From: Octopus vulgaris
Taxonomy: Eukaryota
Assembly (NCBI GenBank): GCA_951406725.2
Contig: OX597816.1
Location: 57,040,001-57,104,000, forward strand
Length of the DNA stretch: 64,000 nt
Direction of reading: 5' to 3'
The first letter of the stretch is position 1. Each line of letters opens with the position of its first letter. A program made the translations under genes and the position numbers. Of this stretch, positions 7,773 to 60,190 are shown one piece after another. The notes under the pieces were generated by a model, which did no database searches, was not told the DNA's origin, and saw nothing but the letters and a program-made list of their open reading frames with translations.

Positions 7773-8001
7773 TAACAGATGTATAATATATATATACATA
7801 TATATATATATATATTATATATAAGGGCTTAGTAAAATAAATTACTTTGCCACATACTGAACTCATTAGAAATAGCAGCTAAAGAAATTTCTTTAGCTAT
7901 TTCTAATACTTAAAGAAAATCTCTCTCAGATAGTGTTTGCTCAAACCAACTCACACAGGTATGGGGGAAAAAACATTAAAAAATCAAGTGCAAAGGTTAT
8001 T

Positions 8002-8053
8002 TGAGAACGTACGTTTCTAGATTAGTCAAATCGACATTTCTTTCGTCAGCTCA
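8002..8053 (-). ncRNA. Type I hammerhead ribozyme motif (family 1, copy 1)
   Basis: Minus: tgag CTGACGA aagaaatgtcgatttgactaatcta GAAA cgtacg TT ctca; helix I tgag/ctca, palindromic helix III. Confidence 0.8.
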
Positions 8054-8557
8054 GAACTCCTTGATTCGGATTTGGGAACACTGAAAGTGGGAGCATATCC
8101 TTTTGGCTTCTTATCACCTCTAGATTTCCGCTCGAACTAAAAGTGCTATCAAATTCGAAATATGCAAGCGAAGAATTTCTGCTCTCCCTTTCCACCAGCG
8201 TGGGTTAAAATTGACAAACACTATGTTTTATCGGTGAAAACCGACGCATTAAACAGAGAGAAATGAATTATAATTTCAACAATTGAGGGTAAAATTAATT
8301 AATTATTAATCAATTTCACCAAGTATTCAGTATGTAAAGGGACCATTTTAGGCGAATTCAAAATATTACATTATATATAAGGGCTTAGTAAAATAAATTA
8401 CTTTGCCACATACTGAACTCATTAGAAATAGCAGCTAAAGAAATTTCTTTAGCTATTTCTAATACTTAAAGAAAATCTCTCTCAGATAGTGTTTGCTCAA
8501 ACCAACTCACACAGGTATGGGGGAAAAAACATTAAAAAATCAAGTGCAAAGGTTATT

Positions 8558-8609
8558 TGAGAACGTACGTTTCTAGATTAGTCAAATCGACATTTCTTTC
8601 GTCAGCTCA
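8558..8609 (-). ncRNA. Type I hammerhead ribozyme motif (family 1, copy 2)
   Basis: Same sequence as 8002-8053, 556 nt further on. Confidence 0.8.
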
Positions 8610-9113
8610 GAACTCCTTGATTCGGATTTGGGAACACTGAAAGTGGGAGCATATCCTTTTGGCTTCTTATCACCTCTAGATTTCCGCTCGAACTAAAAGT
8701 GCTATCAAATTCGAAATATGCAAGCGAAGAATTTCTGCTCTCCCCTTTCCACCAGCGTGGGTTAAAATTGACAAACACTATGTTTTATCGGTGAAAACCG
8801 ACGCATTAAACAGAGAGAAATGAATTATAATTTCAACAATTGAGGGTAAAATTAATTAATTATTAATCAATTTCACCAAGTATTCAGTATGTAAAGGGAC
8901 CATTTTAGGCGAATTCAAAATATTACATTATATATAAGGGCTTAGTAAAATAAATTACTTTGCCACATACTGAACTCATTAGAAATAGCAGCTAAAGAAA
9001 TTTCTTTAGCTATTTCTAATACTTAAAGAAAATCTCTCTCAGATAGTGTTTGCTCAAACCAACTCACACAGGTATGGGGAAAAAACATTAAAAAATCAAG
9101 TGCAAAGGTTATT

Positions 9114-9165
9114 TGAGAACGTACGTTTCTAGATTAGTCAAATCGACATTTCTTTCGTCAGCTCA
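9114..9165 (-). ncRNA. Type I hammerhead ribozyme motif (family 1, copy 3)
   Basis: Same sequence, third monomer. Confidence 0.8.
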
Positions 9166-9369
9166 GAACTCCTTGATTCGGATTTGGGAACACTGAAAGT
9201 GGGAACATATCCTTTTGGCTTCTTATCACCTCTCGAATCACCTCTCGAATCACCTTATCACCACTCGAATTTGATAGCACTTTTAGTTCGAGCGGAAATC
9301 TAGAGGTGATAAGAAGCCAAAAGGATATACTCCCACTTTCAGTGTTCCCAAATCCGAATCAAGGAGTTC

Positions 9370-9421
9370 TGAGCTGACGAAAGAAATGTCGATTTGACTA
9401 ATCTAGAAACGTACGTTCTCA
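9370..9421 (+). ncRNA. Type I hammerhead ribozyme motif (family 1, inverted arm)
   Basis: tgag CTGACGA...GAAA cgtacg TT ctca read directly on the plus strand. Confidence 0.8.
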
Positions 9422-10193
9422 AATAACCTTTGCACTTGATTTTTTAATGTTTTTTCCCCCATACCTGTGTGAGTTGGTTTGAGCAAACACTATCTGAGAG
9501 AGATTTTCTTTAAGTATTAGAAATAGCTAAAGAAATTTCTTTAGCTGCTATTTCTAATGAGTTCAGTATGTGGCAAAGTAATTTATTTTACTAAGCCCTT
9601 ATATATAATGTAATATTTTGAATTCGCCTAAAATGGTCCCTTTACATACTGAATACTTGGTGAAATTGATTAATAATTAATTAATTTTACCCTCAATTGT
9701 TGAAAATATATATATATATATATATATATATCAAAATAAGGATTCAAATAGAATCACGTACTTGAAAAGATATGGAGGGTTGGATAAATCTGTGGTTCTA
9801 GCCTATGGTTGGTAAGTATTAAATTGGATATTCCGGTTGTTTACTCAGAGAAAACCAAAGCTTTATGAGTATTTAGCGCCTAAGGGGCTGGTCCAAATCA
9901 CGTGTCACGTTGCACGTGTTACATTGTACGTTGTTGGTATACTCTAGGGTGTCCGACAAGTCGTATATCCCCTTGGTGTATTATAATCAAATGAAGAATA
10001 ACAAGCGATGGATAATTGTCGGCTCATTACAGCTAGAAGAATGAGAGCATTTCTTCATTACAGAGAACTGTAATCATCAAATGAAACGTAATTTAACAAA
10101 TAAAAGAATATCCCAAGAATATGGCAGGGACGCGACTGGAAGAAACAGCTGTAATGAGCTGATATTTATCCGTCGTCTGTTATTATTCATTTG

Positions 10194-10227
<34 letters not shown>

Positions 10228-10232
<5 letters not shown>

Positions 10233-10795
10233 GGGGCGATGGGTAAATTGTCGCCATTTTATATTTCTAATTTTGTGCATGTGCATTGCGTGTTTTTGAT
10301 TTTTCTCAGACGAGAAAGATTTCTGCTGGGATCAGATGTTAACACACAAAAAAATCCGTTGTCTTGTTATATCCACAAAACATGCACCGAAAGTGATAAA
10401 AATCAAACATCCAGTCAGCATAATGGTGTGTGGAGGGATCCATTCATCTACCCACACGGCCTCAGACTCAACACGGACGCCCATATCAAGTGACTGCAGA
10501 GGGCAGTGCTGCCCTGGGTTAAGAGGGTTGCAGCTGAAAGACCCTATGTCTGGCAACAGGACTCTGTACTATGTCACACAAGCAGGAGAACCCAGTCATG
10601 GCTGTCAAGCAATTTCTGTGACCACATCACCCCTAACATCTGGCCATCTAAATCCTCAGACCCCCTTGATTATTGAGCGAGAGAACAACAAAACTCCTTG
10701 TCACACGAAAGATGAACTGAAGGCGAAGGTTATGACATCATTCACCAACTTAAACAAGGAGACCGTCCAGAAGAGTAGCAGGAGATTCCGATGTC
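10228..10795 (+). mobile_element. Tc1/mariner (maT/DD37D-like) degenerate element
   Basis: TA + caggggcgatgggtaaattgtcgcc TIR-like start; peptide KIKHPVSIMVCG...DELKAKVMTSFTNLNKETVQKS..RFR; homologous to 29588-30409. Confidence 0.8.
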
Positions 10796-11426
10796 TATGT
10801 ATGTATCTATACATGTATGTATGTGTGTATATATGTATGTTTGGTTGCGCAATAAAACCACTTGTGGCACCAAAATCAAGCTCTTGGGTGGCTTTAACTG
10901 AAAAATGTCTTTGAGAAGATGAAACTCTCTAATATAAACTTGCCTTGAAATAGTTTGCAGTTATCACGCATTTTCTTTTCAGTGATAGTCAGAGAGGAAC
11001 ATACGCAGATGGAGGGAGACAGAGAGAGAGAGAGAGAAAAAGAGACAGAGAGAGAGAGAAAAAAGAGAGAGAGAGATGCAGAGGAACAGAGAGAAGGAAT
11101 GGAAGGAAGGAATGGATTCCATACAGCTAGAATAAGGGAGCAGCGGCTGACATAGTCGTGTTAGAAGATTCGAGAGAGTAGATGGGTGAGACGGTGTTTG
11201 TAAAATGTTAGTGAGTAGATTATTTGCCTCTGTCTCAGAGTGATTCAAAATTACAGACTTTGGTAAAGATTAACACATCTGTAAAACTTCTGGCCAAAAA
11301 ACATATAAATTCTGCTTGCTATTTAGGAGAACAATGCGGCTTTTGTACTCTAGTCGCTGTGTTTATAAATACAGTACATACTTACATGTAAACATATATA
11401 AACATGCATGTATATGCATGTATATA

Positions 11427-11519
<93 letters not shown>

Positions 11520-11540
11520 AGAGAGCGAGATATATATACA

Positions 11541-11590
<50 letters not shown>

Positions 11591-12238
11591 AATACAAAAC
11601 ATACATTTAAATATATATAAACATGCATATATATGCATGTATATATATGTGTGTGTGTGCTTGCGTACGTGTGTGTATGCACCTGTGTATGTGTGTATTT
11701 GTGTATACATATATGTATGAATATAAGCAACCGCATGTTTGTGTAAGCATGAATGTGTCGGTGTGTGTTTGTGTGTGTGCGCGCGCGCGTGTCTGCCTTT
11801 CTGTGTGTGTGTGTGTGTGTAGTGTGTGTTTGATTCCGTCTCCGTCTCCATGCAACGTAAAGTCGTCAAACGATTTACACTCACACATGTACTAATGATT
11901 AATAATAATTAATATAATTAGTTGTTCTATAAAATAGTTATGAAACAACTTCATTTTCTGAGCGATGTCTCTCAAATATTCCAAAACACAGGAACATTTG
12001 GTGGCTTCCATTGTAGAAGAATGCTTAGAATTTCGAACAGACAAAAGAAACTAGAAAACAATCTAGGAGAGCGGGCGCACTAGCACATACATAAGTGTAC
12101 GTCTATCTGTTACTCCACATATGCATACAAGCATACAACAGATAGACACACTGGAACATACACACACATGTACACACACACACACACACACACACACGCT
12201 CACATACATATATACCAATATATACATATGTATGTATA

Positions 12239-13345
12239 TAGTAAAAGACAGCCTAAAAACTTGAAAACATTACTAACAAAGGCAAAATTTGACCTTAGCA
12301 ACAAAGACCAAACATTCACTGTATCTAAATGCAATGATAGCCGTTGTGGCACATGCGAATTCATACATACCGGCCAATATATAAACACAAAAACCGGGAA
12401 AATATTCACAAACGCGAATATGAACTGCACTGCATCAAATGCCCAAATTGTGAAGAAATATATGTAGGTCAGACGGGAAATGCACTATCAGAACGCTCAC
12501 GTGTACACCGACAACAGATTAGAGACCCAGAGGTCCGTCAGATACCTTTGAGTAACCATCTAGCAACATGTGGTCGGAAAATATATATAATATTTCCATT
12601 CTACAAATTACACAAGTGAAATCGAGAGGAAAATCAGAGAAAAGAATTTTATTGATAAATTCGAACCAAAGCTAAATAAGCAATAATAATAATACTTAGA
12701 GGTGCTACTTCTACTGCTACGACCATGACCACTAACAACAACAAAAACAATACTAAAGGTGATCAAGATGAAGATAGCAGGAAAATTATCTTATTTAGGC
12801 TTAAAAGTTCTATTGCCACCACCATCACCACTAGCAACAATAATTAAGGTGCTGACAATGATGATGATGACAATTGAAATATAAAAATCCCTGACCAAGG
12901 CTATTTACTAATTTCTAAAAATAGCCCAACAATTGCTGCCTCGGCCAGGGTTAAGATACAGGACTCTTGACATGTTCAAAAAAGCTTGACGCCTAAACCA
13001 ACCAATCAGCTTAAGTAATTGAGTGATGCTACACACTGATTGGTCAGAATACAGTTTGCAAAACCTAGTAATCTGGAGCCCACACAAGTGTATTTAAGGC
13101 ACATCTTAACCATCTCGGTACAGTCAAAAATTGTGAAGCATGGCTGTCACCACTACTACATGAACCTGAAGATTGCAGAATTTAATGCATGAAAGTACTA
13201 GTTCAATCAGAATGAACATTTAACATTCTACTATTTTATTTTATCCTATTATTTTATCGTATATTATATTATAAGATTGTAAATAAAACGTGAAAATCAG
13301 ACAAGGTTGGAATTCCTTTTATTAATATATTCTTCTATACACAAT
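12239..13345 (+). mobile_element. Penelope-like element 3' part: Zn-finger + GIY-YIG endonuclease remnant and pseudo-LTR
   Basis: KRQPKNLKTLLTKAKF...KCNDSRCGTCEFI (frameshift) CIKCPNCEEIYVGQTGNALSERSRVHRQQIR...IDKFEPKLN, followed by a non-coding tail with an HHR and AATAAA. Confidence 0.9.
13161..13205 (+). ncRNA. Minimal type I hammerhead ribozyme in the PLE pLTR
   Basis: tgaac CTGAAGA ttgca gaatttaa tgcat GAAA gtac TA gttca; 5-bp helix I, tgca/tgca helix II, palindromic agtact. Confidence 0.88.
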
Positions 13346-13354
13346 CACACACAC

Positions 13355-13410
<56 letters not shown>

Positions 13411-13413
<3 letters not shown>

Positions 13414-14421
13414 AGTTAGTTAGTTAGTTAATTTGGCTCAAAAGCAAATACCAAGGCCATGTAGGGGGACATGGAGTTAAGTACAGGGTGGTGTTCATGT
13501 AAAGAGTTCAGGCCACTTGAGGTCCAAGGAGGCTTTGAACAAAGCGGTCGTCGGCATCTTCACCATCTCGTCTGGCAGCTTGTTCCACGGATCCGCAACC
13601 CGGACGGTGAAAGCTCCTCTCCTTCGATTGAGATGAAATCGTCGCAGGTAGAGCTTTTCGGAATGACCCCGCAGCCGACGCTCCGGAGCAGGAGTGAAGA
13701 ACAGCTCTTTCGAGAGGTTACATTTCCCGCTTATGATGTTGTGGGCGAGAATGAGATCACCACGGCGGCGGCGTTTTTCAAGTGAATAAAGGTCGAGCGT
13801 CCTCAGCCTTTCTTCGTAGGACAAATTTTTGAGACCATGAACCATGCGGGTAGCCAGCCTCTGGACTCTTTCGGGATGCTGTATGTCTTTGAGGAGATAA
13901 GGAGAAGAGGCTTGAATCCCATACTCCAATATGGGTCTCACCAGCGTGACATAGAGTGGTAGGAATATGGCTGCTGTGAGCATTCCGAATGACCGTCGAA
14001 TCAAAAACAGAATTCCGCGCGCTTTGTTAGCAGCATGGACGCACTGGGCCGAAGGCGAAAAGGAGGAATCCACCAAGATACCCAGGTCCTTTACCTGATC
14101 GGTCCTCTCCAGCAGCAGACGACCCGGCTCGAAATCAAGTTGAGTTGCAGGAGTAGAGCCGACAGGCAGATGACAGCACTTTGACACGTTCAGACACAGG
14201 TCCCAATCGTTAGACCACTTCCAAATTTGGTGGAGGCATCGATGAAGATCCTCTATACTACCGCGAGGAGCGACCAGTTTGATATCGTCGGCAAATAGAA
14301 GGGTGTGTTGCGTGAGGTCGTCGGGCAAGTCATTTATGAAGACTAAGAACAACAATGGCCCAAGCACTGAACCTTGAGGCACGCCACTGCTCGCACTGGA
14401 GACGTCGGACCGCGAACCATT
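13411..14421 (-). mobile_element. 5'-truncated CR1/L2-group LINE with an open RT C-terminal frame and (TAAC)n tail
   Basis: 295-aa ORF 13495-14382 with PQGSVLGPLLFLVFINDL, LFADD, VRPILEY, RRRGDLI, LRGH; short 3' UTR ending at the gttagttag tract 13411-13430. Confidence 0.93.
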
Positions 14422-14677
14422 AACTTGAACTTGGAGTATATATATACACGCACATATATATACATATGTACATATACGTATATGTAATTATATAATATAG
14501 ATATACATATACGTGTACGTACGTACGTACATACATACATACACACATACATGCATACATACATACATACATACATACATACATACATACATACATACAT
14601 ACATACATACATGCATGCATGCATACATACATACATACATACATACATACATACATACATACATACATACATACATA

Positions 14678-15420
14678 GTAACTATGAATGGATATGTTAC
14701 TAAAAAGCTCCGTGATGATAGTAACATCGATCATCAAAGCAGTCTATCATGGATGAATAGCCGGATTACTACCTCCCACTTTAAAGGATATGCGTTTTCA
14801 ATCCAGAAACAGGAAACATCAACCAAGTACCTGATACACAAAAGGGATTGAGATGCAGGAAAAGCAGAGAAATGTGACAACCGATACAGACTTTGTGGAA
14901 ATAACACCGAGGATATCACCCACATCATAAACAGTTGTCCGAAAACGTCATCACGGTATAATCTACCGATGAGACATGACGTTGTGGCTAGGACACTCTA
15001 TAATGAAATCCATCTGATGGATAATCCCGAGGACAAAGATTTTAGAAGCCACAATATAGTAGAAGCCATTGCCACTCATAATAAAAAAGGAATACTGGTG
15101 GAATGTAACAGTGTAAACCTCAATAAAATGTAAGCACAACGGACCTGATATAATGATTTGGGATAGAGAAGATAAATTGTGTACAATTGTGGAAATTAGC
15201 TGCCCAACGGATGTTAACATAAAGCTGAAGATCTGTGAAAAAGATAACACTTATGCTGAACGAATGAGGAATCTGCAGTTACTCTACGCAGATTACGAGT
15301 TTAGGATTATACCTGTAATTATTGGGGACCTGGGATATGTAACACACTGCCTAAATACCAATCTTGCGAAATTAGGCTTCTCAAAACCAGAAAGGAGTAA
15401 GTTGATTCGAAGACTATAGA
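14678..15420 (+). mobile_element. R4/Dong-like RLE LINE C-terminal fragment
   Basis: IQKQETSTKY...RLCGNNTEDITHIINSCP...RHDVVAR (CCHC knuckle), then PDIMIWDREDKLCTIVEISCP...EKDNTY...IIPVIIGDLG (PD-(D/E)xK nuclease). Confidence 0.85.
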
Positions 15421-15440
15421 CCTAATATATATAGATCTAA

Positions 15441-15513
<73 letters not shown>

Positions 15514-15973
15514 CGGGAAGGTTTACGAAAATAAACAAAAGACAAAGGCAGGTGGAGTACAAACAAACAAATGTATTAGTATGGCGCTCAGGAATAGAAA
15601 TAGAACAAGTCTTTTACGTTTCGAGCCTACGCTCTTCGACAGAAGGATACACAGAAAAAAACAAAGGAGAGAAAAATGCGTGTAGGAGCTAACGATCTAT
15701 CATAGCTTAATAGTGAGGGATTATCAATCTGGCCAAAATCCTCCATAAACTGTCTTTTGGCACACCAGGCTAATACAATTGTTTTGTTTAGTAACGAACT
15801 CCTAGTTTTCTATTCCTTCCCCTCTTACTTCCCCATCTTCACTTTAATACTTCCCTTCCAAATCGTAACTTGTCTTCTTCTTTCCTCTTTATCTCTATTT
15901 CACTTGTCTCTTTCCTACTCTTTTCTCCCCCCCCCCCACCTCCTTCAGTGTTCTGCTTTCTTCTAACGAGAAA

Positions 15974-16086
15974 TGGCTCTGACGGAAGAAAGTCGCATTA
16001 ATTTTCTTAGCTCGTTCAATTTGCCTGAATTGAGTAAACCTATCAGTAATGTACCTGTAATGACTACTGGAAACAGCTGTAAGCCA
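15974..16086 (+). ncRNA. Hammerhead-like motif with extended domain II (core variant CTGACGG)
   Basis: tggct CTGACGG...agtcgcatta...taatgact actg GAAA cagctg TA agcca; perfect 5-bp helix I. Confidence 0.6.
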
Positions 16087-16721
16087 GCTTTAATCGAGAA
16101 AGGTGAAATATGTAATGACCATTATTTATACATACAGTCATAAGACTAATTATTAGCCAGACTCAGGTTAGAATTTGAAAAGAGACGCATGTCAATGAGA
16201 GGTCGCGAATATTGACGAAAGGACTTTCACAAACAAGCAACCGATTGATTGCTTGATGAACGTATTAAACAAACGATCGATTAGTTAGCTGGTTAGACAT
16301 TTAACCAATTAACTAACAATGAAGAAGTGAAATTGAACCAGTGCCTGTGTTATTACTTTTGGCGTAATAACCCTCCCGAGAAACAACAATACATATATTT
16401 ATACACACACACACACACATATATATATATACATATATATATACACACACACTCGTGTGTGTGTGTGTTATACATATGCACATAGGATGTCAAAAATCTC
16501 CTACATTTTACATGTTAACAAATATTTCAATCCCAAATGCACAGTACACAACAGTCTAAACCATAGCGATAACTAAAACAAAATATAAAAGAACGATGAA
16601 ACATTAGCTGCATGCACACCCTGTTACCACCTACTTATCTCTACTAGAGCCACAGCAATGGCCGTGTAAAATATAGGACGAGTTTCGTTGCACTCTCTAT
16701 AAATGTATATAATATATGTAT

Positions 16722-16937
16722 ACTCTTACTCTTTACTCTTTTACTTGTTTCAGTCATTTGACTGCGGCTATGCTGGAGCACCGCCTTTTAGTCGAGCAAA
16801 TCGACCCCGGGACTTATTCTTTGTAAGCCCAGTACTTATTCTATCGGTCTCTTTTGCCGAACCGCTAAGTGACGGGGACGTAAACACACCAGCATCGGTT
16901 GTCAAGCAATGCTAGGGGGACAAACAAAGACACACAA

Positions 16938-16984
<47 letters not shown>

Positions 16985-17147
16985 CGACAGGCTTCTTTCA
17001 GTTTCCGTCTACCAAATCCACTCACAAGGCATTGGTCGGCCAGGGGCTATAGCAGAAGACATTTGCCCAAGATGCCACGCAGTGGGACTGAACTCGGAAC
17101 CATGTGGTTGGTAAGCAAGCTACTTACCACACAACCACCCCTGCGCC
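16722..17147 (-). mobile_element. SINE family A, full length
   Basis: Reverse complement of 24450-24850, including head and (AAGAGT)-type tail. Confidence 0.92.
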
Positions 17148-17833
17148 TATCTAAAAATTAGAAGTAGATGTTTAGCCTACATCAAAAGCAGAATCTTACT
17201 TTCACAAGCAAAGAACAGATAATGATTTTGTATGGACTTTAAGATACTAATTTAACCTAATTGAATTCCTATAAGGTTTGCTGACGATGAAATCCCTGTC
17301 CGATTTAATTTCATTTAAGTAGAATTAAAGAGATTTAAATTAGGCGTGAAATTAAAATTGCAACGCCGAATATATCTGTTTCAAGATATTCTCTTCCAAA
17401 TATTTAATTTAGGGGCTTAAATAATTTATTGCAGTCTCAGAGAATCCTAGAGTTACGCTTGAGTTCACAAATAATGTTTATTTTTAAGTTAATCAGATGG
17501 GGGCGGTACAGTTCTCATGACTTTCGGAGTGCTCGGTTATGTGACATTGAGGTCGTAGTTGTGTCAGTATCTCCAAGGATAACATGGGGTGGGAAAGGGG
17601 GAAAACTGTCTAGTCTGATCGCTTCCAGTTCTTTTAAAAGTACCCAAGAACTATATAGGGGTATTAAACAGAGCCGTGTATAGGATGCACTATTCATTCT
17701 TTCCTCCTCATCCTCTTCATCTTCATCCTCATACTCCTCGTCAGTAAAACTACGATGAGCTATGAAATATTGCCTATAGTATTCAGTTCGTCGGCCCTGG
17801 ACTTATAGAAAGAGAGAGAGAGAGATTAGATAG

Positions 17834-17872
<39 letters not shown>

Positions 17873-17879
17873 TAAATAA

Positions 17880-17933
<54 letters not shown>

Positions 17934-17951
17934 ATAAATAGATAGATAGAC

Positions 17952-18005
<54 letters not shown>

Positions 18006-18014
18006 GTAGATAGA

Positions 18015-18054
<40 letters not shown>

Positions 18055-18101
18055 TTGATAAATAGATAGATGTATATATATGTGATATATATATATATAT
18101 T

Positions 18102-18133
<32 letters not shown>

Positions 18134-19104
18134 TACAGAAGCACAATTAAAGGTTACGAACGCTACATATCTGGAATCTTTAAATTAAATTTTGTCCAGT
18201 AGTTCTTTATCTTTATTAGTCTAGCTCAATAATAAATTTTTAAGGGGTGAAAGGTAATATAAGTCTTTACTCATTTATTTATTTTTCTCTCTCTATTTTC
18301 ACTCTTTACTCTATTTTGATTTATTTATTTTACTTTATTCTTGTTTTTATTTTATAATTTTAATGTACCCTAACATTAAGTTAATATAGTTATTAGTCTT
18401 TTCACCCTTTCGATATTTATAATAAGTAATAGATTGCCTGAATTTTCCTCCACTTTAATTAAATATTAATAACTATATACACTTGAATTAAACCCTACAT
18501 GCTAATTTTATATTGATTTAATAAGGATAGACATAATAGCACAATATGACCTTTTTACCAATTGTATCTACTTCAGCTTTCTTATACCTAACACCCCAGA
18601 TGAATATATTGTTATATTCTTACTTTACAACTCCAGTATACACAACCTTACTCCCCTTCTATGGTCTCTACCATTTCTTACACTCTGTTCTGTATGTCTA
18701 AATCTTATCAGTTAATGCCTTGCAGCCGTTTACTCAACATGCAGAAATTGAACACCTATTTTGTATATCTTTACCTCTCAAGAGATTCGACTTTCAAATA
18801 ACTTTTAATTTAGTTAATTAATTTTCTGAAGATCTGGAATTGAAACAGCTGTAAGGGATCTTAGTCAGTTTTTTAATTACTAAATAAGAATTTATTAATT
18901 ACCTCTCTATTTTCTCATCTTATTATATATATATATACACACATACATACGTGCATATAAATATATACATACATATATACTTACGAGCATATATATATAT
19001 ATAATATTAATTAGAGACAAAACCACTATTTTGCAAATCAAACAAAGAAAGACTTAATCCAACACATAAAAAAATTTAATATAAATTAAATAAAATTAAA
19101 TTCG

Positions 19105-19150
19105 CCACTACAATTGTTTCGTGTCTCTTCAAAGGACATTCATCAGGTGG
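19105..19150 (-). ncRNA. Type I hammerhead ribozyme motif (left arm)
   Basis: Reverse complement of 19187-19232. Confidence 0.85.
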
Positions 19151-19186
19151 ATTTCAGATCTTAAAATTGAATAGAAGATCTGAAAT

Positions 19187-19232
19187 CCACCTGATGAATG
19201 TCCTTTGAAGAGACACGAAACAATTGTAGTGG
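19187..19232 (+). ncRNA. Type I hammerhead ribozyme motif (right arm)
   Basis: ccac CTGATGA atgtc ctttgaaga gacac GAAA caattg TA gtgg; canonical core, GUA site. Confidence 0.87.
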
Positions 19233-19421
19233 CGAATTTAATTTTATTTAATTTATATTAAATTTTTTTATGTATTGGATTAAGTCTTTCTTTGTTTGAT
19301 TTGCAAAATAGTGGTTTTGTCTCTAATTAATATTATATAATATTTTACTATAAAATTGGATTCAATCCTAAATCTGATTTTTCCCTGTAAATTTGGATTT
19401 ATTCCCTAATATTTATTATTA

Positions 19422-19475
<54 letters not shown>

Positions 19476-19683
19476 GTAAGATCCAGGGATCAAAGTGTAA
19501 GGAATTTGTAAGCTTCGAGCAGTCCGTGAGAGATATGAGTTCCTATGAATGCGAATATAAATCTTAATATTCTAGATTAAAAATGAACTTCGTTTATCCA
19601 AATTTTGAAAAATGAAAGAAGAAAAAAACCGCATTATTTATGGTATGATGAAACATATATATATATATATATATACATACATA

Positions 19684-19736
<53 letters not shown>

Positions 19737-19950
19737 TCGAGACAAAGAATAAGTAAAGAAAATCTCTTTATTACAAAATACAAGCCACTTCTTAACGGGT
19801 CTACGACAAACAATTAATATACCTCAACTTTAGAATAAAAGAAAAAAATATATATACACACACAAATACTACACTCCATAGAATCCATTACTAATCAGCC
19901 CCTTCATAGCTATATTTACACCCATTCATATTCTCCCTTCTCTGTTTTTT

Positions 19951-20229
19951 TCTTCTTCTTCTTCTTCATCATCATCGTTATCATCATCATCGGCGTCATC
20001 ATCATCACCACCATCATCACCACCATCTTCTCCTTCTCCTTCTTCTTCTTCTTCTTCTTCTTCTTCTTCTTCTTCTTCTTCTTCTTCTTCTTCTTCTTCT
20101 TCTTCTTCTTCTTCTTCTTCATCATCATCGTTATCATCATCATCGTCGTCATAATCATCACCACCATCACCATCATCTTCTCCTTCTCCTCTTCTTCTTC
20201 TTCTTCTTCTTCTTCTTCTTCTTCTTCTC
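19951..20229. repeat. Compound (CTT)n/(CAT)n trinucleotide repeat with internal duplication
   Basis: The cat/cac block occurs twice between ctt tracts. Confidence 0.9.
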
Positions 20230-20673
20230 CACCCCCTACCCCTTAAGTTTGTCACTAATGTTTTTTAGTATAACACCTACGCTAATTCTATAAACAATCC
20301 TGAATTGAACTGAGACTGCCAGCCGCCACTGACCATTCAAAATACGACCATCAGGGCACTCCCAGATTCTCCCACCCCCTTTCCTCACCAGCCTTCCCTC
20401 TACTACCCTACCAAGAACTCACAACTACCTCGAACACACAAGTGCAAACAAGGGAGTCAGAGAAAGGCAGAATGCCACTTAAATCTGAACACTACTATAG
20501 AAATATTCCTTTAAAAAAACTTTTCTTCTAATTTTTCTAAATTTAATTATTTAATCGTTACAGTTGAAAAGGTCTCAAAATGACCGAAACCGGTACTGAA
20601 ATGTTCGCTATAAAATTATTTTAGCATTTTCTATTTTTTACTTGTTTTTTCATATATATATATATATATATAT

Positions 20674-20757
<84 letters not shown>

Positions 20758-20864
20758 GTAACATATAATAGGTATACATAGGTATACATAGGTATATATA
20801 GGTATATATATAGTATGATACATTAATTGCTGACACATTTATGTATGTAATATGTATGCCGAAC

Positions 20865-21235
20865 GCATGGCACTGTATTCAGTCCCAATGCGTGGCACCT
20901 TGGGTAAATATCTTCTATAGCCTCAGGTCGACCAAACCTTTGTGAGTGGACTCAGTAGATGGAAACTGAAAGGCGCCCGTTTCGTGTGAGTGTGTGCGTG
21001 CGTGTGTGTGTGTCTGTGTTTATGTGTATGTGAGAGTATGTATCTGTGTTTGTCTCCCACCACCGCTTGACGACCGTGGTGGTGTGTTTACGTCCCTGTA
21101 ACTTACCAGTTATGCAAAAGAGATCGATAGAATAAGTAGTAGGATTCAAAAAATATAAATCCTAGGGTGGATTTGTTCCACTAAAACCCTTCAGCATGGC
21201 CGCAGTCAAATGACTGAAGCAAGTAAAAAATGAAA
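20865..21235 (+). mobile_element. SINE family A, degenerate
   Basis: ttcagtcccaatgcgtggcaccttggg...gcatggccgcagtcaaatgactga. Confidence 0.85.
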
Positions 21236-21461
21236 GGTATAGATGCATCAATATATATATATATATATATCGCTTACTGGCTAGATCATCATCAAGTTTT
21301 TACCTCGCCTGTTTATACCTGTTTAAAATTTTATCTGAGGATGGTGGATTATATGTTATGATGTAATCTATAAATGCGTCAATAAAATTCTATCAAAACA
21401 GCTGCAGTATATGTTCAACCACATTTGTGATCGTTTTTATATAAATGTATGCACTTACATA

Positions 21462-21848
21462 TGGATGGAAGCACTCCGTCGGTTACGACGACGAGGGTTC
21501 CGGTTGATCCGAATCAACGGAACAGCCAGCTCGTGAAATTAACGTGTAAGTGGCTGAGCACTCCACAGACACGTGTACCCTTAACGTAGTTCTCGGGGAT
21601 ATTCAGCGTGACACAGAGAGTGACAAAGCCGGCCCTTTGAAATACAGGTACAACAGAAACAGGAAGTAAGAGTGAGAGAAAGTTGTGGTGAAAGAGTACA
21701 GCAGGGATCACCACCATCCCCTGCCGGAGCCTCGTGGAGCTTTGGGTGTTTTCGCTCAATAAACACTCACAACGCCCGGTCTGGGAATCGAAACTGCGAT
21801 CCTACGACCGCGAGTCCGCTGTCCTAACCACTGGGCCATTGCGCCTCC
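21462..21848 (-). mobile_element. tRNA-derived SINE family C, alternative 3' tail
   Basis: Minus head ggaggcgcaatggcccagtggttaggacagcggactcgcggtcg...gtttcgattccca (A/B-box-like); tail differs from the 38078/47996/50092 copies. Confidence 0.88.
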
Positions 21849-22575
21849 ACATGCACTTACATATATTTGTTATATGGCAATTGGTGAACATTAACACTGT
21901 CAATTACTGCCTCACGATGGCTCATCTAATGGTTTTTATGCTTTTATGACAAGATCGATCGAACCTGCATCTACATGTCGGCAAAACAAACTTGCTAACC
22001 ACTCAGCCACTGCGAGAAAGGAAAGTTTTTTACAATTACTACAACAAACTAATCATGTCTTCAACTTGTCACTTAAAATATCAGCTGTTTATATCATCTT
22101 GTATAACTTAGCTGAAAGTTTCTAACCGTGGCCATAACCCAGTAACCTCCTCCTCCTGATCACCAACACCACCCATGCTACTAACCTCCTCCTCCTCCTC
22201 CTCCTCATCATCATCATCATCAACACTATCGTATTCCAATCCCAAATTTTTTGATAAATGATTTATTAATAACCCAATTTGTGTCCTAAAATGGATATGA
22301 TCCTCATTTTTCAAACTTACACCCGTACTTACAGATATATATATATAATTAATCAATATAGGGTGGCAAAAAAAATTTTGTAGAATTCTTTTGCCACCAG
22401 CGGCCTAGTAGGAAAAAATTAAATAGTCATAGACCATTTTTAAGTTTAACATCAACAATCAAGGAACGGCCATAATAGGCCATTCACCCACTAGAAATAA
22501 CAGCCAAAGCTTCAACCGCAAATAAAAGTTAATTCTGTAAACCAGGAGAAAATTTAAAAAAACATTTACCCTGTA

Positions 22576-22682
22576 ATTTCTTATACGATATACCGTTTCA
22601 TCTGCTGATTAATGGTAAACTAACCTGATTAAATTAAATCAAGCCAATCTTCCACAGGCCCTCAGATTCTTCAGTAAGAAAT
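22576..22682 (-). ncRNA. Type I hammerhead ribozyme motif (family 2, copy 1)
   Basis: Reverse complement of 23444-23550. Confidence 0.88.
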
Positions 22683-23066
22683 AGCCCAAGTCGGAGCAGA
22701 TATTTTCACGAGGCATTTCCGACCTTGCCAAGTTTATATCTGACCTAAAATTTTCAAATCGTCGCACTCGCGCCAAATTTATCGGCAGCAAATAAATATA
22801 AGCCGTCGATTCCATTACGGAATTAACCAGAAAATTCATAATTAATCAATATAGGGTGCCAAAAAAAATTTTGTAGAATTCTTTTGCCACCAGCGGCCTA
22901 GTAGGAAAAAATTAAATAGTCATAGACCATTTTTAAGTTTAACATCAACAATCAAGGAACGGCCATAATAGGCCATTCACCCACTAGAAATAACAGCCAA
23001 AGCTTCAACCGCAAATAAAAGTTAATTCTGTAAACCAGGAGAAAATTTAAAAACATTTACCCTGTA

Positions 23067-23173
23067 ATTTCTTATACGATATACCGTTTCATCTGCTGAT
23101 TAATGGTAAACTAACCTGATTAAATTAAATCAAGCCAATCTTCCACAGGCCCTCAGATTCTTCAGTAAGAAAT
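23067..23173 (-). ncRNA. Type I hammerhead ribozyme motif (family 2, copy 2)
   Basis: Reverse complement of 23444-23550. Confidence 0.88.
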
Positions 23174-23443
23174 AGCCCAAGTCGGAGCAGATATTTTCAC
23201 GAGGCATTTCCGACCTTTTTCCTACTAGGCCGCTGGTGGCAAAAGAATTCTACAAAATTTTTTTTGGCACCCTATATTGATTAATTATGAATTTTCTGGT
23301 TAATTCCGTAATGGAATCGACGGCTTATATTTATTTGCTGCCGATAAATTTGGCGCGAGTGCGACGATTTGAAAATTTTAGGTCAGATATAAACTTGGCA
23401 AGGTCGGAAATGCCTCGTGAAAATATCTGCTCCGACTTGGGCT

Positions 23444-23550
23444 ATTTCTTACTGAAGAATCTGAGGGCCTGTGGAAGATTGGCTTGATTTAATTTAATCA
23501 GGTTAGTTTACCATTAATCAGCAGATGAAACGGTATATCGTATAAGAAAT
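23444..23550 (+). ncRNA. Type I hammerhead ribozyme with long helix II insertion (family 2, inverted arm)
   Basis: atttctta CTGAAGA atctg [~58 nt] cagat GAAA cggtatatcg TA taagaaat; 8-bp helix I, 5-bp helix II base, GUA site. Confidence 0.9.
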
Positions 23551-24202
23551 TACAGGGTAAATGTTTTTTAAATTTTCTCCTGGTTTACAGAATTAACTTT
23601 TATTTGCGGTTGAAGCTTTGGCTGTTATTTCTAGTGGGTGAATGGCCTATTATGGCCGTTCCTTGATTGTTGATATATATATATATATATATATATGTGT
23701 GCATGTATATATGTATATAATATGCATGTATATACATACATGCATGTATGTATATACATACATTCATATGTATGTATATATATATACATACATGCATACA
23801 CCAATGCAAGCACATTTACCCATATACATACAAGCATATACATGTGTGTATGTGCACGTGTGTGTGCGTCTGTGGATGGGTGTATATAATGCGTATGTTT
23901 ATACTTTGAATAACAGTCTGAAGTTTTTCAATAAAATACCACTATATTCTACACTTGATTTGGGAGCGCTATACTCTCCACCACCTTTTGCAGGTATGTG
24001 CTCGGATATGTATAATATAAACACACACGCACACGCACATTAATTAATTAATTCGCAATTAATGTGGAGTCATGTTTAAATATCCTCTCACTAGCCTGCG
24101 TTCAATCGCATGTATTTAAAGGGTTTTTTGGTAGCTTCGTAATGTTTGGGTATTAATCCAGTATGCAGGATATAAGTCTTGTCTTGATTTCCTTCCTTAA
24201 AA

Positions 24203-26751: not shown

Positions 26752-26755
26752 TATA

Positions 26756-27034
26756 TACTGTTGTGTCTGGGGAGAATCATTTTCTTTTTGTGCCTTTTTA
26801 TTTAACACACTCACCGGTAAAATTTCCACTTTTTTCTTACTTTTATTGTCCTAAAATTTTCGTTGCGTCTTGCAACCTTTTCAATGGTTTTAGAGACTCA
26901 AAACTATTGAAAAAGTTTGCAAGACGCAACGAAAATTTTAGGACAATAAAAATAGGAAAAAAGTGAAAATTTTACCGGTGAGTGTGTTAAATAATAAGGC
27001 ACAAAAAGAGAATGACACTCCCCAGACACAACAG
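26756..27034. mobile_element. Fold-back / MITE-like palindrome
   Basis: ctgttgtgtctgggga...ttttcaatggtttt and aaaactattgaaaa...tcccagacacaacag are ~135-bp imperfect inverted arms around a short spacer. Confidence 0.8.
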
Positions 27035-27097
27035 AATATGCTTCAACACACGAACTCATATAAATAATTTTGCAAAACAAATCCAAAGACGAAATAT

Positions 27098-27144
<47 letters not shown>

Positions 27145-59549: not shown

Positions 59550-60190
59550 TAGGAAGAGAAAAAGTATCTGGTTCAATCTCTCGTTCAACCTTGAAGTTTC
59601 TACCAACGTTGCTAGGAACTTCCTGTAGTTAATTAAGAAGCATTTCCCTAGAGGCTATAAGTATAACAAGTTCTTTAACCCTCACAATGTCAAGGTGACC
59701 TACGCCTGCTTAGACAACATCGCAGCTAATATTGCACGCATCAACAGACGCAAAAATGCACACACACAACTACCAACCTGCAACTTCCGAAACCCTACCA
59801 TCTGCCCTCAAGGAGGATCCTGCCTCTCTAGGACGATAGTCTACAGAGCAACACTCATACTATCCAATGGCACCACTAAGGACTATATGGGTATGACAGC
59901 CAATGAATTCAAGGGAAGATACTCACATCACATGCACTCACTCAGATGCAGGGACAGAAAGAACTCTACTTCCTTGTCTTGCTTTCTCTGGAGACTCCGT
60001 GACCTCCGAAACGAACCACCTAGCATCAAGTGCACTATCATCGACAGGGTGCCATCACATTTACCCGGCGCCTATAATTACTAGTTCTGCTTCCGTGAAA
60101 GACTGCATATCCCCCACCAACTCACATTATCCATCAACAGGAAATATGGTCAGTTCTATTACTGTCACCCTTCTGGCAAATTTCAAGCAA
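59550..60190 (+). mobile_element. Penelope-like element fragment (linker + GIY-YIG), degenerate
   Basis: RKRKSIWFNLSFNLEVSTNVARNFL*LIKKHFP...VKVTYACLDNI...ICPQGGSCLSRTIVYRATL...YMGMTANEFKGRYSHH...STSLS. Confidence 0.88.

What the first reader, a model, noticed from the sequence alone, without database searches (positions are those of the whole stretch)
7790..23700. Both outer ends are RNA 3' ends annealed to (TA)n: two-sided target-primed insertion model
Taking the HHR strand as sense, each of the three inverted structures has its 3' ends at both flanks and its 5' truncation points fused in the middle. The outer breakpoints fall at AT-rich positions of the unit (atatataat, gttgaaa, ttaattat, gttgat) adjoining (TA)n. 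Inference: both ends of a break in a TA microsatellite primed reverse transcription and the cDNAs were joined centrally. This is compatible with the known inverted pLTRs of PLEs.
Basis: inference. Interest (0 to 1): 0.7.

Follow-up and report, generated by a model that had tools for sequence, protein, structure and literature searches.

The report
Twin-primed Penelope-type ribozyme insertions
Three unrelated small ribozyme-carrying jumping elements sit here as back-to-back pairs in TA repeats, a known layout, and their two ends almost always start at two different fixed points, which suggests that both cut ends of the chromosome likely copy the same RNA outward during insertion.

Summary
Observation confirmed. 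Three unrelated non-coding hammerhead families (A, 556-bp unit; B, monomer; C, 491-bp unit) lie head-to-head between (TA)n. Genome-wide polarity is minus-left/plus-right in 93 of 93 two-arm loci of A, C and an autonomous Hydra-type Penelope family. An intron spliced on the ribozyme strand of B confirms which strand is sense.

One correction: the outer ends are not RNA 3' ends. They fall at two fixed sites per family (S1, S2), 67-106 nt apart and away from the ribozyme cut. One insertion pairs S1 with S2 in 85 of 88 cases. Both arms share source variants (about 90% versus 11-12% in shuffles), join by short microhomology, and are sometimes non-nested. A fourth family shows roughly 11-bp target duplications. 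Annealing to TA is mostly 2-4 nt and does not choose the site. No empty allele was recovered.

Best reading: twin target-primed reverse transcription at a staggered cut, rather than the published self-priming model. The layout, one-sided tail and TA targeting are in print. This scan has noted the same rule on other DNA.

The parts
7782..7815 (.). Left (TA)n target flank of insertion A (one interruption)
7814..9233 (-). Family A left arm: about 2.6 tandem 556-bp units; outer end at S1 (unit position 192 after the ribozyme cut); hammerhead cores at 8006-8049, 8562-8605, 9118-9161
9234..9264 (.). Central junction of A: about 30-nt insert built from repeated snippets of the adjacent arm ends
   Evidence: (period-12 repeat 9225-9255)
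9265..9705 (+). Family A right arm, 5'-truncated; hammerhead 9374-9417; outer end at S2 (position 288), carrying the about 95-nt tail
9706..9731 (.). Right (TA)n target flank of insertion A
18989..19002 (.). Left (TA)n flank of insertion B
18999..19162 (-). Family B left arm; hammerhead 19109-19146; outer end at S1 (about 110-115 nt after the cut)
19160..19426 (+). Family B right arm, spliced form (exon junction at 19177/19178; 1062-nt GT..AG intron in other copies); hammerhead 19191-19228; about 80-nt tail to S2; 3-nt overlap with the left arm
19427..19472 (.). Right (TA)n flank of insertion B
22335..22346 (.). Left (TA)n flank of insertion C
22345..23217 (-). Family C left arm: 1.8 tandem 491-bp units; long-stem-II hammerheads with H17 at 22584 and 23075; outer end at S2 (position 237), carrying the 106-nt tail
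23216..23674 (+). Family C right arm; hammerhead 23452-23543; outer end at S1 (position 131); 2-nt overlap with the left arm
23673..23696 (.). Right (TA)n flank of insertion C
26753..27100 (.).

Best explanation
These are insertions of three non-autonomous, hammerhead-bearing elements, likely written by a Penelope-like (PLE) reverse transcriptase-endonuclease that primes from both ends of one staggered cut. Shown: fixed head-to-head polarity, two fixed outer end points per family, S1/S2 pairing within an insertion, shared source variants between arms, short central microhomology, spliced and unspliced copies of B, and target duplications in family D and some B loci. Inferred: the enzyme, probably a dimer, cuts both strands of a TA-rich target about 11-14 bp apart, leaving 3' overhangs. 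One overhang starts cDNA at S1 and the other at S2, both internal to one RNA (circular or multimeric for A and C), with 2-4 nt of pairing setting the exact base. The two cDNAs stop independently and their 3' ends are joined by microhomology-type repair. The S1-S2 interval is the known one-sided 'tail'.
For: Polarity: 32 of 32 (A) and 35 of 35 (C) two-arm loci, 8 of 8 further A loci from a short query, 18 of 18 loci of autonomous family E. S1/S2 pairing: 29 of 29, 32 of 34, 8 of 8 and 16 of 17 classifiable loci; pooled 85 of 88, p 7e-22 against an even split. B: 29 of 33 adjacent pairs, partly tail-biased. Inherited variants carried by both arms: A 120 of 134, C 50 of 55 (shuffled means 0.11, 0.12); E 69 of 70, B 9 of 11 (shuffled 0.19, 0.10). 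Central junctions: 43 of 65 overlap by 1-10 nt, 5 blunt, 15 with inserts, 2 longer overlaps. Non-nested arms that a fold-back cannot make without a later deletion: A 4 of 29, C 4 of 32, E 7 of 16, B loci L149, L150, L175, L176, L179. Target duplication in D: 15 of 22 loci match over 10 nt or more versus 9.5% of mismatched flank pairs. Five B loci repeat an interrupted TA motif of 14-16 nt on both sides. B arms: 42 spliced, 13 unspliced, 3 unclear; intron GT..AG on the hammerhead strand. In vitro, a PLE protein cuts and extends both strands, starts at two internal RNA sites that bound the tail, and is predicted to be a dimer (PMC11167929).
Against: All evidence is from assembled genomic footprints; no intermediate was observed. 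No empty allele was recovered. Non-nested pairs are fewer than independent arm lengths predict (4 of 29 versus 8.6, p 0.02; 4 of 32 versus 7.7, p 0.065; p 0.10 and 0.16 after allowing for how loci were found). Near-symmetric junctions are slightly in excess (7 of 91 versus 3.8, p 0.08). Shared variants fit fold-back or gene conversion equally well. In older family D arm concordance is weaker (67 of 84 versus 58% between loci). PMC11167929 reports no difference in start site between strands and no homology between start site and cut DNA. No autonomous partner of A, B or C was identified. Loci are the best-scoring 40 of 441-2866 candidates per DNA search, so young copies dominate.
Confidence: 0.7

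Rival explanations
1. Self-priming (fold-back): one target end primes; the cDNA, or an antisense template, folds back and copies itself, and the endonuclease resolves the copy at the other site, giving a one-sided tail. Self-priming on an antisense template is the proposal in PMC3846280; endonuclease resolution of the tail is suggested in PMC8557442.
For: Explains shared variants, splice concordance (14 of 14 loci with both arms typed) and one tail per insertion. Most arm pairs are nested (25 of 29 A, 28 of 32 C). Mild excess of near-symmetric junctions. Several B insertions are near-perfect palindromes at the element's 5' end.
Against: Non-nested arms occur in four families, including monomeric B, where one locus (L175) has arms that do not overlap at all. 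The longer arm can be either the S1 or the S2 arm (S1 longer in 10 of 29 A and 7 of 32 C). Junction positions are mostly unrelated between arms (21 of 91 within 50 nt versus 16 expected). Spliced copies require a sense-strand template. Later central deletions could still mimic non-nesting.
Confidence: 0.15
2. Dual priming: both target ends prime, but on two RNA molecules, each protomer holding its own RNA, usually from the same source locus.
For: Overlapping arms need no strand displacement. In L149 one arm stops at the common 5' end while the other runs about 350 nt further upstream. Some D arm pairs differ at common variant sites (L203: 4 of 6).
Against: Two equivalent RNAs give no obvious reason for one S1 and one S2 start in 85 of 88 cases. 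Arms share variants in 90-99% of comparisons in the young families and never mixed spliced with unspliced forms (0 of 14, although most of these loci were found with a spliced query).
Confidence: 0.12
3. The palindromes arose at DNA level (inverted duplication or recombination of a single insertion), or by independent insertions into the same TA tract, or by assembly error.
For: TA tracts attract repeated, nested insertions (L185, L140). Palindromes are hard to assemble.
Against: No TA at the centre, fixed polarity, fixed and unequal ends, locus-specific junctions and target duplications spanning the whole structure.
Confidence: 0.03

Closest known systems
Complex insertions of endonuclease-bearing PLEs (PMC3846280, parts 1-4 of 5 read; PMC8557442, passages and sections 11 and 15 read)
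   Same: Partial tandems, an inverted 5'-truncated copy joined head-to-head, a tail at one end only, 8-10 bp target duplications, (TA)n targets, retained intron.
   Different: Tails here are 57-106 nt rather than 30-40 nt. The tail is near-obligately one-sided (85 of 88) rather than 'optional' or 'often'. A, B and C encode no protein. The published explanation is self-priming, which part of these data disfavour.
PAc Poseidon element in vitro (PMC11167929, parts 1-2 of 4 read)
   Same: Two internal reverse-transcription start sites that bound the tail, downstream of the hammerhead; both target strands cut and extended; AT-rich targets; predicted dimer.
   Different: That paper does not link the two sites to the two strands of one event or to the inverted layout in the parts read, and reports no homology at the start site; here 2-4 nt overlaps are usual.
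Metazoan non-LTR retrozymes (PMC7761336, passages; bioRxiv 10.64898/2026.07.22.740005, parts 1-2 of 5 read)
   Same: Non-coding tandem units with one type I hammerhead each (A, C); proposed mobilisation by PLEs from circular RNA giving longer-than-unit cDNA.
   Different: Here the PLE footprint (two start sites, inversion, TA target) is visible on the retrozyme arrays themselves. Circular RNA and cleavage were not tested.
L1 twin priming and dual priming (PMC2837659, passages)
   Same: Both nicked strands prime cDNA; two inverted pieces inside one target duplication; junction microhomology.
   Different: L1 starts one arm at the poly(A) tail and the other at a variable internal site, as an occasional variant, with non-overlapping arms. 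Here both starts are fixed, arms overlap, and about 80-90% of sampled young loci of A, C and E are two-armed.
Hydra-clade PLEs (PMC8557442 section 11)
   Same: Autonomous family E in this genome (717-aa frame, about 2.6-kb unit) has RWK, DKT, CxCX5C, a C-terminal GIY-YIG-like domain and (TA)n targets, and obeys the same S1/S2 rule.
   Different: It shares no significant nucleotide similarity with A, B, C or D, so it is not shown to be their mobiliser.

Membership tests
PLE-type insertion | Inverted 5'-truncated copy joined head-to-head | tested here: met
   93 of 93 two-arm loci
PLE-type insertion | Tail at one end only | tested here: met
   85 of 88; tail longer than the 30-40 nt described
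PLE-type insertion | Target-site duplication | tested here: inconclusive
   Clear for D and five B loci; hidden in pure TA for most A and C loci (84 of 108 loci have no C/G within 10 nt of either junction)
PLE-type insertion | Intron-retaining copies | tested here: met
   Family B: 13 unspliced and 42 spliced arms; not seen in A or C
Autonomous PLE | ORF with reverse transcriptase and GIY-YIG endonuclease | tested here: not met
   No ORF of 100 aa or more inside the three window structures; none of 150 aa or more in the longer B copies
Non-LTR retrozyme (A, C) | Tandem non-coding units each with a type I hammerhead | tested here: met
   core and stems by pattern, no Rfam match in the listed rows
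Non-LTR retrozyme (B) | Tandem units | tested here: not met
   B occurs as a monomer with an intron; better called a non-autonomous PLE-end derivative
Non-LTR retrozyme (A, C) | Self-cleavage and circular RNA accumulation | not testable with these tools
   Only assembled contigs were offered. Indirect: inherited variants sit in all units of an arm in 153 of 169 (A) and 86 of 99 (C) cases
L1-type twin priming | One arm starts at the RNA 3' end / poly(A) | tested here: not met
   No poly(A); ends at fixed sites that tandem arms also traverse. Works like twin priming, but is not the L1 process
Hydra clade (family E, not in the finding) | RWK, DKT and CxCX5C motifs, under 3 kb, (TA)n target | tested here: met
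   Read from the 717-aa frame of L268 against PMC8557442 section 11; Pfam GIY-YIG hit is weak, E 0.011, below cut-off
Hydra clade (family E, not in the finding) | Placement in the Hydra clade by RT phylogeny | not tested
   No tree was built

The most novel reading that the evidence does not exclude
PLE integration is twin-primed by design: an asymmetric RT-endonuclease dimer bound to the tail segment of a single RNA makes a staggered double-strand cut and starts one cDNA at each edge of the tail. Every insertion would begin two-armed, single-arm copies would be abortions of one arm, and retrozymes would hitchhike simply by carrying a tail-like segment.
Probability: 0.45. Interest if true: 0.72.

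Novelty: new variant of a known kind. Interest (0 to 1): 0.5.

Why it matters
How PLEs form their tandem/inverted structures is named as an open question in PMC8557442 (section 15), and the proposal in PMC3846280 is self-priming on an antisense template. A near-strict S1/S2 pairing ties the two in vitro start sites of PMC11167929 to the two ends of one target break and gives a simple strand-resolved experiment. It also places retrozyme arrays on the PLE insertion pathway by footprint. The elements and their layout are of known kinds, and the scan has recorded the same rule in this and other genomes, so the increment here is the number and variety of tests.

Tried and rejected
Empty allele: public contigs of four runs laid on insertion A gave no joint across it; repeat copies swamp the stretch. 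B and C were not examined this way. No conclusion.
Rfam: only microsatellite- and palindrome-driven miRNA-type matches among the 150 of 224 rows shown; none reached its gathering score.
Short query for family C returned no candidates, so C lacks a sample free of the full-unit requirement.
Mobiliser search: no significant nucleotide match between A, B, C, D and family E.
Tail structure: MFE folds pair the S1 and S2 regions in A and B but not C or D, with no control; not used.
Apparent pile-up of S2-arm truncations near S1 in A: judged a product of the query's length requirement; not used.
D variant test with variants in 3 or more loci (17 of 58) is inflated by recurrent mutation; redone with six common sites.
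Interrupted-TA duplication test: 9 of 17 loci scored 12 nt or more versus 9% null, but on inspection only five B loci are clean; three matches borrow element letters and one is ambiguous.
Literature: searches found no paper proposing two-ended priming at the two tail boundaries for PLEs; subscription papers are not covered, and no supplements were read, where such a model could appear.
Full report
1. What is in the window. Self-comparison shows three young inverted structures at the stated places, each with (TA)n on both sides. They are unrelated in sequence and hold no long ORF. A (7814-9705) is a 556-bp tandem unit, C (22345-23674) a 491-bp tandem unit, and B (about 18999-19426) a monomer. 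Each unit carries a type I hammerhead core with a short palindromic or near-palindromic stem III, on the minus strand in the left arm and the plus strand in the right arm. The hammerheads are recognised by pattern only: the Rfam rows shown list none and single-strand folds do not recover the fold. That minimal PLE hammerheads may cleave as dimers is stated in PMC7761336 (passages).

2. Which strand is sense. Family B settles this without the ribozyme. Some genomic copies contain a 1062-nt GT..AG intron 51 nt upstream of the cut and others, including the window copy, lack it precisely: 42 spliced, 13 unspliced and 3 unclear arms among 57 loci. The intron reads on the hammerhead strand. Spliced copies must derive from a sense RNA.

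3. Polarity. The genome is 2.8 Gb in 227 contigs. I mapped the best-scoring loci of each family: 40 for A (of 1940 candidates), 40 for C (of 920), 12 further A loci from a short query, 57 for B, 40 for a fourth window palindrome D (26753-27100), and 20 for an autonomous family E met inside locus L185. Two-arm loci are minus-left/plus-right in 32 of 32 A, 35 of 35 C, 8 of 8 further A and 18 of 18 E. Eight of the E loci were fetched after their polarity was visible, where 9 of 9 opposite-strand pairs have it. D has 24 head-to-head partners and no tail-to-tail partner among 40 loci. B has 33 head-to-head adjacencies and one opposite adjacency, between neighbouring pieces at a compound locus (L140).

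4. The outer ends are two fixed sites, not RNA ends. Counted from the ribozyme cut, A ends at 182-199 (S1) or 284-293 (S2), C at 124-131 or 231-237, E at 40 or 107, and B at about 110-115 or 188-199. Tandem arms pass through both sites in their inner units. This matches the two internal start sites that bound the PLE tail in vitro (PMC11167929). Within one insertion the two ends differ: S1 with S2 in 29 of 29 A, 32 of 34 C, 8 of 8 further A and 16 of 17 E loci with both ends at a site; pooled 85 of 88, p 7e-22 against an even split, treating loci as independent. Left out were three A, one C and one E locus with an end at neither site. B gives 29 S1/S2, one S2/S2 and three unclassified of 33; D gives 22 of 24 partners ending at S1. 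The main B and D queries included the tail, so those two are biased. Single-arm loci end at either site (A 5 S1, 3 S2; C 2 S1, 3 S2).

5. Annealing. The overlap between element and TA run is 2 nt at 29 of 34 C-S1 ends, 2-3 nt at 26 of 38 C-S2 ends (9 with none), 2 or 4 nt at 27 of 33 A-S2 ends, and 1-8 nt at 21 of 35 A-S1 ends. The C unit has five alternating AT runs of 4 nt or more and none is used as an end; in A three of five are. Pairing likely sets the exact base, but the site is chosen by something else, presumably the protein-RNA complex.

6. The target. No empty allele was recovered. Indirect evidence: D mostly inserts outside TA tracts (6 of 22 loci have a (TA)4+ flank) and shows direct repeats across the whole inverted structure, median 11 nt, 15 of 22 at 10 nt or more versus 9.5% of mismatched flank pairs; two of the 22 are copies of one locus. 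Five B loci repeat an interrupted TA motif of 14-16 nt on both sides (L066, L076, L080, L136, L139). Both point to a staggered cut in pre-existing DNA with 3' overhangs. The original length of the TA tract is unknown, and growth during or after insertion is not excluded.

7. One template. Variants carried by three or more loci are present in both arms in 120 of 134 cases in A and 50 of 55 in C, against 0.11 and 0.12 in 500 shuffles; E 69 of 70, B 9 of 11. In older D the figure is 67 of 84 at common sites against 58% between loci. Such variants sit in all units of an arm in 153 of 169 (A) and 86 of 99 (C) cases, as expected from a circular or homogeneous multimeric RNA. Splice state agrees between arms in 14 of 14 typed B loci, 13 of them spliced and mostly found with a spliced query.

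8. Twin priming or fold-back. PMC3846280 explains head-to-head PLE repeats by self-priming on an antisense template. A fold-back copy must lie inside the first arm. That fails in 4 of 29 A, 4 of 32 C, 7 of 16 E and five B loci, one with arms that do not overlap. The longer arm can be either one. Central junctions are locus-specific: 43 of 65 overlap by 1-10 nt, 5 are blunt, 15 carry inserts and 2 overlap more; two junctions inside A's own palindrome were left out. The window's A junction holds a repeated-snippet insert, which resembles polymerase-theta end joining (recalled, untested). Against my reading: non-nested pairs are fewer than independent lengths predict (p 0.02 and 0.065; 0.10 and 0.16 after conditioning), near-symmetric junctions are slightly in excess (7 of 91 versus 3.8, p 0.08), and later central deletions can mimic non-nesting. 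A minority of fold-back events is possible.

9. Comparison with what is known. [quoted passage not shown] PMC8969392 was seen as passages only. My searches found no paper assigning the two start sites to the two ends of one break; the library lacks most subscription papers and I read no supplements. Earlier notes of this scan state the short-end/long-end rule and a twin-priming reading in this genome and others; I saw them after forming my reading and they are not independent evidence. Family E has the Hydra-clade motifs but is not shown to mobilise A, B or C.

10. Verdict. The elements are new members of known kinds; the mechanism, if true, is a fixed-site variant of twin priming that addresses a stated open question and is directly testable. 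Interest 0.5.

Noticed in passing
window 26753-27100: Fourth inverted insertion (family D), older, with a hammerhead-like motif whose C3-G8 pair appears replaced by U-A (read by eye, untested); most relatives sit outside TA tracts and show target duplications.
   Followed up: yes
window 12084-13410: 3' fragment of a PLE: cysteine linker and GIY-YIG-like reading, hammerhead core at 13166 (+), ending at (CA)n(TA)n. Pfam gave no relevant hit for the part scanned.
   Followed up: partly
window 59629-60084: Endonuclease-like fragment resembling family E's C-terminal domain by eye; no Pfam hit.
   Followed up: partly
window 18826-18937: Single hammerhead core on the + strand about 100 nt upstream of a TA run, directly left of insertion B; a further element end.
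   Followed up: no
G000 family E (L267-L298): Young autonomous Hydra-type PLE: many 96-99% identical copies with an open 717-aa frame, in tandems and inverted pairs; its hammerhead-like core reads CCGA instead of CUGA.
   Followed up: partly
L185 (G000:C7:17120500-17130400): Nested structure: family E inserted in the TA centre of another inverted element, next to a B arm joined to an unrelated TA-ending sequence, possibly a two-family event.
   Followed up: partly
family B loci: 5' truncation points cluster at about -74 (possible transcription start) and at +6 to +12 after the ribozyme cut; an ATG opens stem II as in PAc but the frame stops after 17 codons.
   Followed up: no
family C loci: Several truncation points lie at positions 5-8 and 24 after the ribozyme cut, which may mark cleaved templates; not tested.
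   Followed up: no
window 13495-14487: 330-aa reading frame of a LINE-type reverse transcriptase C-terminal part on the minus strand (recognised by eye).
   Followed up: no
L259 and L260: Two D loci on C5 about 0.8 Mb apart share flanks, suggesting a segmental duplication or assembly duplicate.
   Followed up: no
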